Source: an uncultured Verrucomicrobiae bacterium (GTDB lineage: Bacteria > Verrucomicrobiota > Verrucomicrobiia > Chthoniobacterales > UBA10450). From it: a DNA stretch of 64,000 nucleotides. A program made the position numbers. Below, one piece after another: positions 54,001-64,000 of this stretch. Numbering within the stretch: the first letter of the stretch is position 1; each line of letters begins with the position of its first letter. The DNA is taken from the NCBI GenBank assembly GCA_963717545.1, contig OY970345.1:682001-746000 (forward strand), given 5' to 3'.

Positions 54001-57000
54001 GAGCGCGACAAAGTGGAGTTGAACATCACCCTTTCGCGTGACGAACAGGAGATTGCGTTGCAATCGACTTCGCTCCGGATTCGCACCCCGGAAGTGAACG
54101 ATAAGACGAAACAACTCAAGACAATCGCAGAACAACAGAGCGGCCGGATCCGCAGCTCTTCGTTCTCGCGCGACCCGAACGGCCGCGAATACTCGACCGT
54201 GTCGCTCCGGGTGCCGATGAAGAATTACAACGCGCTGATGCAGGCGCTGAATGGTCTCGGCAAAGTGGAGAACGTCAGCGTGCGGCGTGACGATCGGCCG
54301 AACTCACAGACCGACGAAGCGAACGCGCCGGCCGATGTTACCATCCAGGTTTACAGCGAGGGGAACATCGTCTCGGAAGAGACTGGCATTTGGGTAACGC
54401 TCCGCCGCACGATTGGACAAGGCGCCGCTGCGTTGATGTGGAGCGTGCGGATGATCGGCGTCGCGATCGCGTTCCTCGCCCCGTGGGCGTTGATCCTCGC
54501 GGCGGTAGGCTGGGTAGCGCGACGCGTTGGGCGCGCCAGGGCGGCACGCAAACAAGCGACCGAACAGGATCGGACCTGATCCAAAGCGCTGGCCTGGGGC
54601 TGTAGACGTTCGCCTGCGGCGAACGCGAGATATGGCGCGGCAGTTATTTCAGCACGCTCCCTCACGTCGGCCACAGGCCGACGGCTACAAGGTCACGGAT
54701 CCTAGCCCTTCGGCAGAGCTAACCGGGGTTTTCGCCAGAGCTCCGATTTCAGCATTCCGTTCCGGAACAAGTCCTGACGTTGCCGGATGAATCCTTCGGC
54801 GTGGAGGAATGGTGAAGGGTCAACCAACTGCCGCGCTTCGATCCCAGCCACGCAACGAAAAAACGAATACATAACGGCAAGCCAGGCGCGCGCCTGGCGG
54901 CGAGCGAAGCCGGCTTCCGGGACTCTAAAATCTGCCAGCAGCCAGATGGCATTCGGAGCCGCAGCCTGGGCAAGCTTCGCCACGATATGGCCAACCTGTC
55001 GCGTGCTGAAACAATCGAGGACGAAATGCGTCACGATCAAATCGTAGCGGTCGTTAGGTGTCCATGAAATCACGTCATGCTGAAGAAACGCAACGCGATG
55101 AATCCCATCCGGATTCGTTCGGAGAATGTACCGTCGCGCCAGCTCGAGCATTCGCTGACTGCTATCCACGCAATCGACTCGGATCAGCGGCTGGCGCTGA
55201 AGAAGTGCTGCCAGAAATCTTCCATTCCCCTCACCTACGATAAGTGCGCGGCGCGGCGAACCGATGTCGTCGAGACATGCGACCCGAGCCTGCTGCAACG
55301 CGTTCCCGAACGCGATCGTTTCGAGCGCGCGATACCAGGGCGCGACGGCATCGAAGCTCACAACGCCGCCCAGACGAGCGCAAGGACCGGAGTGAGCAGG
55401 ACCAGATCGGCAAGCGCGGTGCGTTGGTCGGTCGTTGTAGCGACGGCGCTCTGTCGCCGTACGAACGCGTATCTACGGCGACAGAGCGCCGTCGCTACAA
55501 CAGCCCTGAAGCTGCCAGACGCATTGAGGCAACCGAGCAGTAACGCACTCACGCTGACACAGATGAAAAATGGCGCGGCGGGCTGATGCAAAAGCGCGAG
55601 GACAAATGATCCGGCTGCCAGAACGACGCAAAGCAGCGCGACGCGGCCAATGATTGCGGGATGAAGCGTCGCGATGGAGACCTTGCCTTGCGCTCGATCC
55701 AACTCGCATTCCCAGGCGGCGATGCTGACACAGTTCAACGAGCACAACGCCGCAAACACTACGACGGCAATGGCGAAACCCAGGGTCAAGCCAGGACGCG
55801 GCAGCAACGCGACAACGGTCCCGGCGGCAAACAGAATTCCAATCGCCGTTTCCTTCGCGGGCAACGACCGCCAGATCAAACCGAGAGGATGGTTCGCGAC
55901 GAGATATATTACCGCTCCAAGACCCACCACGGCGCCGACGAGAAATGTTTGGACCGCTGTGGTTCGCCAGATGACGTAAGCATCGAACCCAGCGACGAGA
56001 GCGAGACTCGCGATCCAGATTTCGCGGTGGCGAAGACAAAACTGCTGGCGAAGCGACCGCGGCATACCCGGTTTCAGGGTAACCGCGTCGGCGAACCGAT
56101 CCCCGAGATAGATGAGCCACGCGGTAAGGAAAAGCGCGACGGCGTTCCCGATTTGCAGCGGAACCGCGAAACTGCGCGCGAACAGCCAAAGCCACGCGAT
56201 CGCTACCAGCGGCGCGTCCAGACAAACGAGGTTGAGCCAGACTGTAGGAACCACGCGTTGCGCTCCATGCGAATCCCGACCTCGCAGCGCGGCGGCCCTA
56301 CCGGGTAAATCGGCTTGCTGAGTCTTCAATCGATCTTACTTTAGATTGCATCGCGCCGGACAGCTACCGCCTATGAATTCAAACGCCATTTCGATGAACA
56401 ACCTGGCGGTGGCGTCGCTGCCCAGGCATCTTCTCCAATTCGCGGTCGACCAGCGTTACGAAGAGTATACGCCGGTGGATCACGCGGTCTGGCGCTTCAT
56501 CATGCGGCAGAACACTTTTTTCCTCAAAGAGTACGCCCACAAGGTTTATTTCCAGGGCCTGCTCGACACCGGGATTTCCTTCGAACGGATCCCTCGCATC
56601 CAGGAGATGAACGACATCCTGGGCAAGATCGGCTGGGGAGCGGTGGCGGTGGACGGGTTCATTCCGCCGGCGGCGTTCATGGAATTCCAGGCTTACAAGG
56701 TCCTGGTGATCGCGTGCGACATGCGCCAGATCCATCACATCGAATACACCCCCGCCCCCGACATCGTCCACGAGGCAGCCGGGCACGCCCCGATCATTGT
56801 CGACCAGGAGTACTCGAATTATCTCCAGCGTTTCGGCGAAGTGGGCGCGAAAGCAATGCAGTCCCGGAAGGACTTCGAGCTTTACGAAGCCATCCGGCAC
56901 CTCTCGATATTGAAGGAGTTGCCGAACTCGAAGGAGGAGGAAGTGGCCGCGGCGACCCGCGAGGTCGAACAGCGTTTCGCGAATCTCGGCGAGCCTTCAG

Positions 57001-63000: not shown

Positions 63001-64000
63001 TCTTTGACTCCGGTTTCCGGGCCGGAATACGCGAGCGACTGAAAGCCGAACGCGGTTTTGTAATAATGCGCCGCCTGCTTTGCGTTACCGACCCAGAACT
63101 CAACATAGTCAGTTCCTTGGAGCGGGAGAAAATCGGTTTCGGTCGACGGGGATGTTTTCGGAGCAGCGATGGTCGTTTCCATAAGCGTAAGCGGTTCTCG
63201 GACGTTTCTTCACGTTAACCGAAAGCCCCGAGCTTTCAATCCTCACGGCGCGGACTCCGTGCGCCTTTGCCAAGGAGAGGTTTTTGCGTGACACCAGGCC
63301 AGCTACTTGGCACGCTCACATTCCCCAACTTCCCCGCCATGCCCCAAACACCGATCCCCAATTTCCACAACGCCCGGCTCTCTCTCGTCCAATCCTTTAT
63401 TCGCGAGGTGATCTGCAAGAAGTTCGCGAACCTCACCGGTTCCGGGCTTTTTGCTGAACATCCAAAAATGCGGGCCGCAGGAGCCACGCTCGTCCAAATA
63501 GAGCAAGGCGTCTTGCGCGACGCTGGCGCAGCTTTCGGATTTTACGATGCGGAGTCCGCCGCGCGGCGTCTTGAGGGCGGCGCCACAGGTTTTCCGGCGG
63601 AGGACTGTATCGATCTCCTGGTGAAGTACGCGATCGCCTGGGCCTTGGACGACACCGCGTGGATGGCACAAATCCAAAGCGAATTTACCGACAGCCCGTG
63701 CGATCCCGGCTGGTTGACCGCGGCAATCACCTGGCTCGCCTACTATTGGGACGGCCAACTGCCAGATTACGCCCCGCCGGCCGGCACGTCGCCACAACCG
63801 TTTCCATTGCCTCCGCCGGCCATCGCCGGTCAGCCGCTGCGAGTTGGAATTCTGGGCGACTGGGGGACGGGAGAGCCGGAAGCGATCGCGGTTTTAGACC
63901 AATTGATGCAACAAAACCCCGACCTCATCATTCATGTGGGGGACATCTATTATTCGGGCACCCACGACGAATGCATCACGAACTTCCTCAACCTGATCAA

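What a model noticed while it worked through the whole genome (the two positions that open the first line are those of the whole stretch)
56373..63182. Single-chain trimer PTPS in an animal-type BH4 operon feeding phenylalanine hydroxylase
hppD-hmgA-folE-PTPS-SDR face a long-form aromatic amino acid hydroxylase, and the PTPS (g777) is three tandem T-fold domains of which only the third has the CxxxxxHGH motif of BH4-type PTPS-II. The cluster likely makes tetrahydrobiopterin, not monapterin, for Phe catabolism, with the PTPS trimer encoded as one chain. Only single and dual-domain PTPS have been described.
Evidence so far: Three PTPS Pfam hits 5-137, 148-262, 272-396; best hit rat PTPS. Full-length in 12 of 12 genus genomes, none in 8 other families; same order in 3 other genera; SDR in 41 of 61 family and 0 of 56 other order genomes. 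Motif and single/dual-domain PTPS from PMC5041015, passages and reference list read.
(Added by a program. Inside this text positions count along the whole contig: contig position 682,001 is position 1 of the stretch shown here. "Call 12" and the like, gene names such as g00115 and contig names such as C1 are that model's own, and its searches are not shown. The text may have been shortened before it was handed on; [...] marks where a part breaks off. The agent that wrote the report below was given it as the finding of a first reader that could run no searches.)

Follow-up and report, generated by a model that had tools for sequence, protein, structure and literature searches.

The report
Three-in-one pterin synthase with divided labour
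A family of soil bacteria encodes three copies of the pterin-synthase unit in one protein, predicted to close into a single-chain ring in which the units likely share out the catalytic residues, and it likely makes the biopterin-type cofactor for the phenylalanine hydroxylase encoded beside it.

Summary
Observation confirmed. The 399-aa protein holds three PTPS units, 23-25% alike. Only unit 3 has the catalytic Cys and all three Zn histidines (171 of 171 homologues). Unit 3 lacks the Asp-His pair that the opposite ring normally supplies (His in 0 of 171); units 1 and 2 keep it. AlphaFold gives 12 strands joined by short hairpins, and the model aligns end to end with single-chain beta-barrels, supporting a one-chain ring. 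Patterns in 34 distant relatives point to a head-to-head dimer in which unit 1 completes unit 3's site (inferred; no dimer model). The protein is family-wide (137 of 151 genomes; hydroxylase 141), occurs in four other phyla, and arose independently in Nostocales. 'Animal-type' is not supported: the units sit among Chloroflexi dual-domain PTPS, and the SDR's best solved match is Chlorobium sepiapterin reductase, which makes L-threo-BH4. The SDR is found in only 93 of 151 genomes and was lost repeatedly, so the final pterin is open. No paper on a three-unit PTPS turned up, though three key papers were not held. This scan noted the fusion before on other DNA (e1-3251800, e1-4326978). New variant of a known kind.

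The parts
62049..63182 (-). hppD, 4-hydroxyphenylpyruvate dioxygenase (377 aa)
   Evidence: TIGR01263 451 bits, cut-off 277
60855..62039 (-). hmgA, homogentisate 1,2-dioxygenase (394 aa)
   Evidence: Pfam HgmA_N and HgmA_C above cut-off; below the TIGR01015 cut-off
60218..60757 (-). folE, GTP cyclohydrolase I (179 aa from the ATG at 60757); the only GCH-I found in this 88%-complete genome
   Evidence: TIGR00063 259 bits, cut-off 181.6; single tblastn hit; no FolE2 family match
59012..60211 (-). Three-unit PTPS-II (399 aa, P0001), predicted single-chain 12-stranded ring
59795..60211 (-). Unit 1 (residues 1-139): no Cys or Zn histidines (R15, E34, T41, R43); keeps D81-H82; inferred donor of the cross-ring Asp-His to unit 3 of the partner chain
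   Evidence: D81 and H82 in 171 of 171; Asp-His in 29 of 34 distant relatives and 15 of 15 with a degenerate unit 2
59423..59794 (-). Unit 2 (residues 140-263): R154 and A173 replace His and Cys; keeps H179, H181, D211-H212, E230, E253; inferred non-catalytic self-paired metal or pterin site
   Evidence: 165-170 of 171 at each of these positions; full catalytic head in 10 of 34 distant relatives, degenerate in 15 of 34
59015..59422 (-). Unit 3 (residues 264-399): catalytic head H279, C298, H304, H306, E362, E387; Asp-His replaced by Q343-N344
   Evidence: six residues in 171 of 171, His at position 344 in 0 of 171; head in 34 of 34, Asp-His in 4 of 34
58202..58894 (-). NADP-type short-chain reductase (230 aa, P0002), likely a Chlorobium-type sepiapterin reductase; patchy in the family
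   Evidence: profile ranks 2bd0 first of 274; W184 aligns to Trp196, Phe99 is not kept; 93 of 151 genomes
56373..58118 (+). Long-form aromatic amino acid (phenylalanine) hydroxylase (581 aa)
   Evidence: PRK14056 772 bits, cut-off 346; full-length match to solved phenylalanine-4-hydroxylase 7vgm, E 1.6e-157

Best explanation
The 399-aa protein fuses three PTPS units, of which only the third keeps the zinc-cysteine catalytic head; it is predicted to close into one 12-stranded ring and likely pairs head to head with a second chain, so that unit 1 of one chain would complete the active site of unit 3 of the other, likely turning dihydroneopterin triphosphate into the pyruvoyl-tetrahydropterin from which the neighbouring hydroxylase's cofactor is likely made. 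Shown: the three units, the split of residues, the gene context and the co-occurrence. Predicted: the closed ring. Inferred: a dimer in register unit1-unit3', unit2-unit2', unit3-unit1'. That would give two catalytic sites in place of six. Unit 2 would be a spacer that may still bind metal through H179, H181 and the partner's H212. Inferred pathway: FolE makes dihydroneopterin triphosphate, which is shared with folate and queuosine synthesis; this enzyme commits it to 6-pyruvoyl-tetrahydropterin; the SDR reduces the side chain to a tetrahydrobiopterin of untested stereochemistry; the hydroxylase turns Phe into Tyr; HppD and HmgA carry it to homogentisate and ring cleavage; a pterin-4a-carbinolamine dehydratase encoded elsewhere recycles the cofactor.
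For: Residue split in 171 homologues. In 34 distant three-unit relatives: catalytic head 0, 10 and 34 in units 1, 2 and 3; Asp-His 29, 17 and 4. All 10 with a catalytic unit 2 also keep Asp-His in unit 2. In the 15 with a degenerate unit 2, unit 1 keeps Asp-His in 15, unit 2 in 0 and unit 3 in 2. Of the three possible registers, only unit1-unit3'/unit2-unit2' fits all of this. PMC9894224 (passages) states that in-ring contacts are beta1-beta4' and that the triad His comes from the opposite ring. The model has pLDDT 97 and pTM 0.93, with 4- and 5-residue links between strand 4 and the next strand 1. It aligns over residues 1-390 or 1-399 with single-chain barrels such as Tubby and a designed 12-stranded barrel (Z 7.7 and 6.1, rmsd 3.9 and 4.7). 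A relative with an unrecognisable unit 2 still folds as three units (pTM 0.92). The CxxxxxHGH motif defines PTPS-II (PMC5041015, section 5). A separate QueD, FolB and dehydratase are present. In genomes at least 90% complete, the PTPS is in 96 of 99 and the hydroxylase in 98 of 99. folE lies directly upstream in 49 of 50 loci. The PTPS-SDR-hydroxylase block recurs in Ignavibacteriales, Zixibacteria and Acidobacteriota (L075, L076, L081, L089).
Against: No enzyme or pterin was assayed, and the dimer rests on conservation alone. The barrel matches have Z under 8, a range the tool calls common, and model coordinates could not be inspected. The SDR is missing from about 36 of the 96 good genomes that hold the PTPS (derived). 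Its presence changes 6 times on the PTPS tree, and no replacement above 155 bits was found in 5 of 5 tested genomes. 2bd0 leads the next SDR by only 5 bits, unrelated SDRs in the order score as high, and Phe99 is not kept. His89 survives in unit 3 of 8 of 34 relatives, and 5 of 34 lack Asp-His in unit 1. The hydroxylase is within the locus in only 26 of 43 loci. Family genomes are kin, so co-occurrence is not independent.
Confidence: 0.68

Rival explanations
1. The same enzyme and ring, but the SDR is only an accessory: the hydroxylase runs on a partly reduced side-chain pterin (6-pyruvoyl- or 6-lactoyl-tetrahydropterin), or housekeeping carbonyl reductases finish the job. The cofactor would then not be classical BH4 in much of the family.
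For: SDR in 61 of 99 good genomes against 96 and 98 of 99 for PTPS and hydroxylase. At least 5 changes are forced on the tree, whose outgroup has the SDR. Partial SDR frames in L028 and L047. No orthologue in 5 of 5 tested genomes. Carbonyl and aldose reductases can replace SR in mammals (PMC7520308, passage).
Against: The SDR stays next to single-ORF or dual PTPS genes in six phyla with an invariant Trp, and it is intact in this genome.
Confidence: 0.25
2. Other register: unit 2 of the partner chain supplies the Asp-His to unit 3, and unit 1 pairs with itself.
For: Unit 2 keeps D211-H212 in 168-169 of 171 close homologues.
Against: Fifteen relatives have no Asp-His in unit 2 yet keep unit 3's head and unit 1's Asp-His. 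A catalytic unit 2 (10 of 34) would face unit 3's lost pair.
Confidence: 0.1
3. The single ring works alone, or with a rebuilt triad inside unit 3; the Asp-His pairs of units 1 and 2 are kept for folding.
For: No direct evidence of a dimer was obtained.
Against: Asp-His is invariant in unit 1 (171 of 171) but freely lost in unit 3, which argues against a folding role. Published T-fold active sites bridge two rings (PMC11672702 and PMC9894224, passages).
Confidence: 0.08
4. The pterin serves another consumer (a pterin glycoside or methylated pterin as pigment or signal), and the hydroxylase is only a neighbour or a second user.
For: Cyanobacteria and Chlorobium make BH4 glycosides (PMC3546692, passages). 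A methyltransferase and an unknown membrane protein follow the hydroxylase in many loci.
Against: The cluster sits between hppD-hmgA and the hydroxylase, and the block with the hydroxylase recurs in three other phyla. No FolX-scoring gene offers another cofactor.
Confidence: 0.08
5. Animal-type pathway giving L-erythro-BH4.
For: Best solved PTPS matches are rat, human and C. elegans. Phe99, tied to L-threo substrate binding in Chlorobium SR (PMC7520308), is not kept, so L-erythro is possible as chemistry.
Against: Bacterial dual-domain units are closer than animal ones (47% against 40-41%). No chain named as an animal SR is among the top 60 for the SDR profile. No animal sequence was in my trees, so descent from animals was not tested.
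Confidence: 0.15

Closest known systems
PTPS-II (EC 4.2.3.12): animal hexamer (1b66, 3i2b, 2g64) and bacterial single- or dual-domain forms (Synechococcus PCC 7942, Chloroflexus, Bacillus)
   Same: T-fold units (TM 0.88-0.91 to the target), CxxxxxHGH, three Zn histidines and two Glu in unit 3; clustering with folE and a reductase.
   Different: Three units in one chain; one catalytic head per chain; the cross-ring Asp-His sits on other units than the Cys; a predicted dimer rather than a hexamer.
Chlorobium tepidum sepiapterin reductase (2bd0)
   Same: Top solved match of the SDR profile; Ser-Tyr-Lys triad, Trp196 equivalent and a similar C-terminal end.
   Different: Phe99 is replaced (Val in this protein); the margin over other SDRs is small; product stereochemistry unknown.
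Long-form phenylalanine hydroxylase PRK14056 (7vgm; Bacillus cereus by recall)
   Same: Full-length match, with the iron-binding His-His-Glu motifs (the role of the motifs is recalled).
   Different: Here it is tied to a de novo PTPS-II cluster; the cofactor is untested.
Tandem T-fold enzymes (urate oxidase, FolE2, two-module QueF)
   Same: Adjacent T-folds joined into one sheet; units 1-2 align with urate oxidase (Z 11.0, rmsd 4.6, 218 residues).
   Different: Those have two units per chain and other chemistry; no three-unit T-fold chain appeared.
FolX/FolM tetrahydromonapterin route of proteobacterial phenylalanine hydroxylase
   Same: Supplies a tetrahydropterin to a bacterial hydroxylase from the FolE product.
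   Different: No FolX-scoring gene (33 bits, cut-off 152), and the SDR lacks the TGx3RxG arginine of pteridine reductases (PMC13259868; sequence).

Membership tests
PTPS-II (BH4-type) | CxxxxxHGH motif with upstream His | tested here: met
   Unit 3: H279, C298, H304, H306 in 171 of 171; motif from PMC5041015. Not met in units 1 and 2.
PTPS-II (BH4-type) | T-fold, three units per ring | tested here: met
   [quoted passage not shown] A prediction, not a structure.
PTPS-II (BH4-type) | Cross-ring Asp-His completing the triad | tested here: inconclusive
   Absent from unit 3 and invariant in unit 1; its placement next to C298 needs a dimer, which was not modelled.
PTPS-II (BH4-type) | Co-occurrence with folE and sepiapterin reductase | tested here: inconclusive
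   folE adjacent in 49 of 50 loci, SDR adjacent in 23 of 51.
PTPS-II (BH4-type) | Forms 6-pyruvoyl-tetrahydropterin | not testable with these tools
   Needs an assay.
QueD (PTPS-I) / QueD2 | CxxxHGH or Cx4HGH motif, queE/queC context | tested here: not met
   Spacing is x5; TIGR03367 79 bits, cut-off 89; a true QueD lies beside queE elsewhere.
PTPS-III (folate bypass) | ExxHGH, and no FolB in the genome | tested here: not met
   No ExxHGH in any unit; FolB passes TIGR00525.
Chlorobium-type sepiapterin reductase | Ser-Tyr-Lys triad and Trp196 | tested here: met
   S133, Y146, K150 and W184 invariant in 32 of 32.
Chlorobium-type sepiapterin reductase | Phe99 | tested here: not met
   Aligns to V89 in this protein; so it works like this enzyme at best and is not filed as a member.
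Pteridine reductase (FolM/PruA/PTR1) | TGx3RxG arginine | tested here: not met
   Gly at that place; feature from PMC13259868.
Long-form aromatic amino acid hydroxylase PRK14056 | Score over the curated cut-off along the full length | tested here: met
   772 bits, cut-off 346.

The most novel reading that the evidence does not exclude
A natural covalent T-fold ring whose three units have split the six identical sites of the hexamer into three unlike site types: a catalytic site built across chains (unit 3 with unit 1'), a non-catalytic metal or pterin site on the two-fold axis (unit 2 with unit 2') that could sense product, and a sealed site. It feeds a bacterial phenylalanine hydroxylase that in about a third of this soil family runs without any sepiapterin reductase, on a pterin cofactor not yet described.
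Probability: 0.2. Interest if true: 0.75.

Novelty: new variant of a known kind. Interest (0 to 1): 0.5.

Why it matters
It is a clean natural case of a homo-oligomer turning into a fused, asymmetric enzyme whose copies divide one active site, with relatives showing the steps (unit 2 catalytic, half-dead, or a bare spacer) and a second, independent origin in cyanobacteria. Each subunit's share of the PTPS active site can be mutated on its own, which the homohexamer does not allow. It also points to a biopterin-type, not monapterin, cofactor for phenylalanine breakdown across a large family of soil Chthoniobacterales, and raises a testable question: which pterin is used where the reductase was lost. 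Cultured carriers exist (Ardenticatena maritima, Cylindrospermopsis raciborskii CENA303, Nostoc sp. PA-18-2419). The chemistry itself is likely the known one.

Tried and rejected
Assembly artefact: rejected, since the units are 23-25% alike and 123 genomes give one long match. Queuosine, folate-bypass and monapterin roles: rejected. No RNA holder listed, and DNA holders had only small shares, which I did not lay. Promoter and terminator scans were at chance level (2 against 2.3; 10 against 9.4). No plasmid match. The atlas gave no hit for the hydroxylase's C-terminal half. No three-unit T-fold chain was listed. Literature searches for a three-unit PTPS found nothing relevant, nor did the search for the 7vgm paper. 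Kong 2006, Phillips 2012 and Pribat 2010 were not held, so a mention there or in their supplements cannot be excluded. One search was a self-comparison and added nothing. Rows dropped before counts: one search used only sequences of 385-430 aa (171 distinct) and left out frameshifted or cut loci; one search started from 36 representatives of at least 345 aa and dropped P0152 (independent cyanobacterial origin) and P0224 (two units with a long link); searches left out degenerate unit-2 sequences, and one search used 77 units (71 of the 191 by my selection, less none, plus cyanobacterial additions, as printed); one search used the 51 of 55 loci with at least 1200 bases downstream.
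Full report
1. Observation. The stated genes lie at the stated places. On the - strand run hppD (63182-62049), hmgA (62039-60855), folE (60757-60218), the PTPS (60211-59012) and an SDR (58894-58202). The 581-aa hydroxylase (56373-58118, +) converges on them, so it is not part of their transcript. Family scores: TIGR01263, TIGR00063 and PRK14056 above cut-off; HgmA_N and HgmA_C above the Pfam cut-off. The hydroxylase matches the solved phenylalanine-4-hydroxylase 7vgm over residues 15-564 (that it is the Bacillus cereus enzyme is recalled). PF01242 hits the PTPS three times, at residues 5-137, 148-262 and 272-396, and the units are 23-25% identical. Named relatives are Chthoniobacterales.

2. 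Distribution. The three-unit protein is in 23 of 24 genus genomes and 137 of 151 family genomes (96 of 99 that are at least 90% complete), 123 with one match over at least 350 residues. The rest are cut by contig ends or frameshifts. In 301 genomes of the phylum, only the family's three have it; 11 genomes of another family give single-unit hits. It also occurs in Ignavibacteriales, Zixibacteria and Acidobacteriota, and in L075, L076, L081 and L089 it carries the same SDR and convergent hydroxylase. Ardenticatena maritima has a 418-aa form. Nostocales have 421-424-aa forms beside the usual 290-aa dual form. In a maximum-likelihood tree of 77 units, the cyanobacterial units 2 and 3 group with cyanobacterial C-units (100/100). 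Unit 3 of our lineage groups with Chloroflexi C-units (94/91), and its units 2 form their own branch (94/94) (140 columns, 27 of 74 forks open). So there are at least two origins.

3. Who keeps which residue. Rat numbering comes from the alignment. Cys42 as nucleophile is from PMC2229834 (passages); the Cys42-His89-Asp88 triad is recalled, and only the title of Burgisser 1995 was seen. In 171 distinct close homologues, unit 3 keeps His23, Cys42, His48, His50, Glu107 and Glu133 in 171 of 171, but His89 in 0. Unit 1 keeps Asp88-His89 in 171 of 171 and has lost the head (R, E, T, R). Unit 2 keeps His48, His50, Asp88, His89 and both Glu in 168-170, with Arg for His23 and Ala for Cys. In 34 distant representatives the full head occurs 0, 10 and 34 times in units 1, 2 and 3, and Asp-His 29, 17 and 4 times. 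Of the 15 whose unit 2 scores under 40 bits, 15 keep Asp-His in unit 1, none in unit 2 and 2 in unit 3. Against the pattern: His89 survives in unit 3 of 8 of 34, and 5 of 34 lack Asp-His in unit 1.

4. Shape. AlphaFold2 on 111 sequences gives pLDDT 97.0 and pTM 0.93, with twelve long strands in three T-fold units. Strand 4 runs into the next strand 1 through 4 and 5 residues. PMC9894224 (passages) states that neighbours in a ring meet by beta1-beta4' and that the triad His comes from the opposite ring, so the short links are what in-ring fusion needs. Foldseek ranks PTPS first. The wide structural search aligns the model over residues 1-390 or 1-399 with single-chain barrels (Tubby 1i7e Z 7.7, rmsd 3.9, 139 aligned; designed 12-stranded 9fdg Z 6.1, rmsd 4.7, 141 aligned). 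This suggests a closed barrel, but the scores are middling. A relative whose unit 2 is unrecognisable in sequence still models as three units (pLDDT 92.7, pTM 0.92), so unit 2 can be a bare spacer.

5. Mechanism (inferred). Two rings head to head allow three registers. Unit3-unit3' leaves the Cys without its His. Unit1-unit1' wastes unit 1's invariant pair and fails where unit 2 has none. Unit2-unit2' with unit1-unit3' explains why unit 1 never has the Cys, why unit 3 lost the pair, and why unit 2 can be fully catalytic only when it keeps its own pair (10 of 10). The dimer would have two catalytic sites. In this family the unit 2 site keeps two His plus the partner's His; that is the ligand set of the catalytic Zn site in A. 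baumannii QueD2 (PMC9894224), so it may bind metal without catalysis. No dimer model was obtained.

6. Which pathway. CxxxxxHGH marks PTPS-II (PMC5041015, section 5 and legends). The genome has a QueD beside queE, one FolB-family gene that passes folB and not folX, a carbinolamine dehydratase about 120 kb away and two fumarylacetoacetate-hydrolase-family genes. The cluster's folE is the only GTP cyclohydrolase I found (genome 88% complete), so it likely also serves folate and queuosine. The hydroxylase is in 141 of 151 family genomes. In fetched loci, folE is directly upstream in 49 of 50, hmgA is within range in 35 of 41, hppD in 32 of 41 and the hydroxylase in 26 of 43.

7. The reductase. 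The single sequence ranks Chlorobium SR (2bd0) 13th of 34; a profile of 32 orthologues ranks it first of 274, at 187 bits against 182 for the next. Ser, Tyr, Lys and the Trp196 equivalent are invariant; Phe99 is not kept. Both aromatic residues are called indispensable for substrate binding in the Chlorobium enzyme (PMC7520308, passages). The same SDR sits by dual PTPS and folE in Chloroflexi and by dual PTPS in Fimbriimonadaceae. It lacks the arginine of pteridine reductases (PMC13259868, passage). But unrelated SDRs of the order reach 174-187 bits, so rank alone does not prove function. It is found in 93 of 151 family genomes (61 of 99 good ones) and is adjacent in 23 of 51 loci, with 6 changes on the PTPS tree. 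Five genomes without it have nothing above 155 bits. Hence a likely sepiapterin reductase here, with unknown stereochemistry, and an open last step in about a third of the family.

8. What is known. Bacterial BH4 synthesis by single- and dual-domain PTPS-II is known (title of Kong 2006; PMC5227711, passages). The sequence supplement of PMC5041015 (Document S1) lists single and dual forms only. Searches found no three-unit PTPS (listings and abstract starts only). Three key papers were not held. Also read as passages: PMC11672702, PMC3546692, PMC7546909. Earlier notes of this scan report the same fusion in a Zixibacteria genome and in another Verrucomicrobium. They are unchecked AI notes, and I count them as no support.

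9. Verdict. A real, widespread and apparently undescribed architecture of a known enzyme, in a pathway of known bacterial parts. New variant of a known kind; interest 0.5. The bolder reading (three unlike sites and a reductase-free cofactor) has probability 0.2 and would deserve 0.75.

Noticed in passing
window 58895-59011 and 58119-58201: Short repeated, REP-like elements lie between the PTPS and SDR genes and between the converging SDR and hydroxylase stops; 26 and 23 blastn hits in the genome.
   Followed up: partly
window 55358-56329 (-) and 54702-55361 (-): A 323-aa hydrophobic protein with no Pfam or NCBIfam hit, and a SAM methyltransferase, run divergently from the hydroxylase; the former is seen in 29 of 80 loci. 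A link to pterin modification is untested.
   Followed up: partly
P0152, P0277-P0289: Nostocales carry an independently arisen three-unit PTPS (duplication of the C-unit) in which units 2 and 3 both keep head and Asp-His in P0152.
   Followed up: partly
P0143, P0146, P0156 and relatives: A clade of 360-400-aa proteins from unnamed sources has a degenerate middle unit that still models as a T-fold spacer; organisms and gene context were not determined.
   Followed up: partly
L085-L099: Dual-domain PTPS with short hairpin links in Chloroflexi and Fimbriimonadaceae cannot tile a three-unit ring; a four-unit ring, as in QueD2, would fit. Not modelled.
   Followed up: no
L100:5995-6855: An Acidobacteria locus has two separate single-unit PTPS ORFs in tandem before folE, a possible unfused stage.
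   Followed up: no
L037:2221-3057 and L046:7325-8161: A conserved 279-aa ORF of unknown function takes the SDR's place between PTPS and hydroxylase in two SDR-lacking loci.
   Followed up: no
window residues 305-581 of the hydroxylase (57285-58115): The C-terminal half has no Pfam hit and no atlas hit but is matched by 7vgm.
   Followed up: partly
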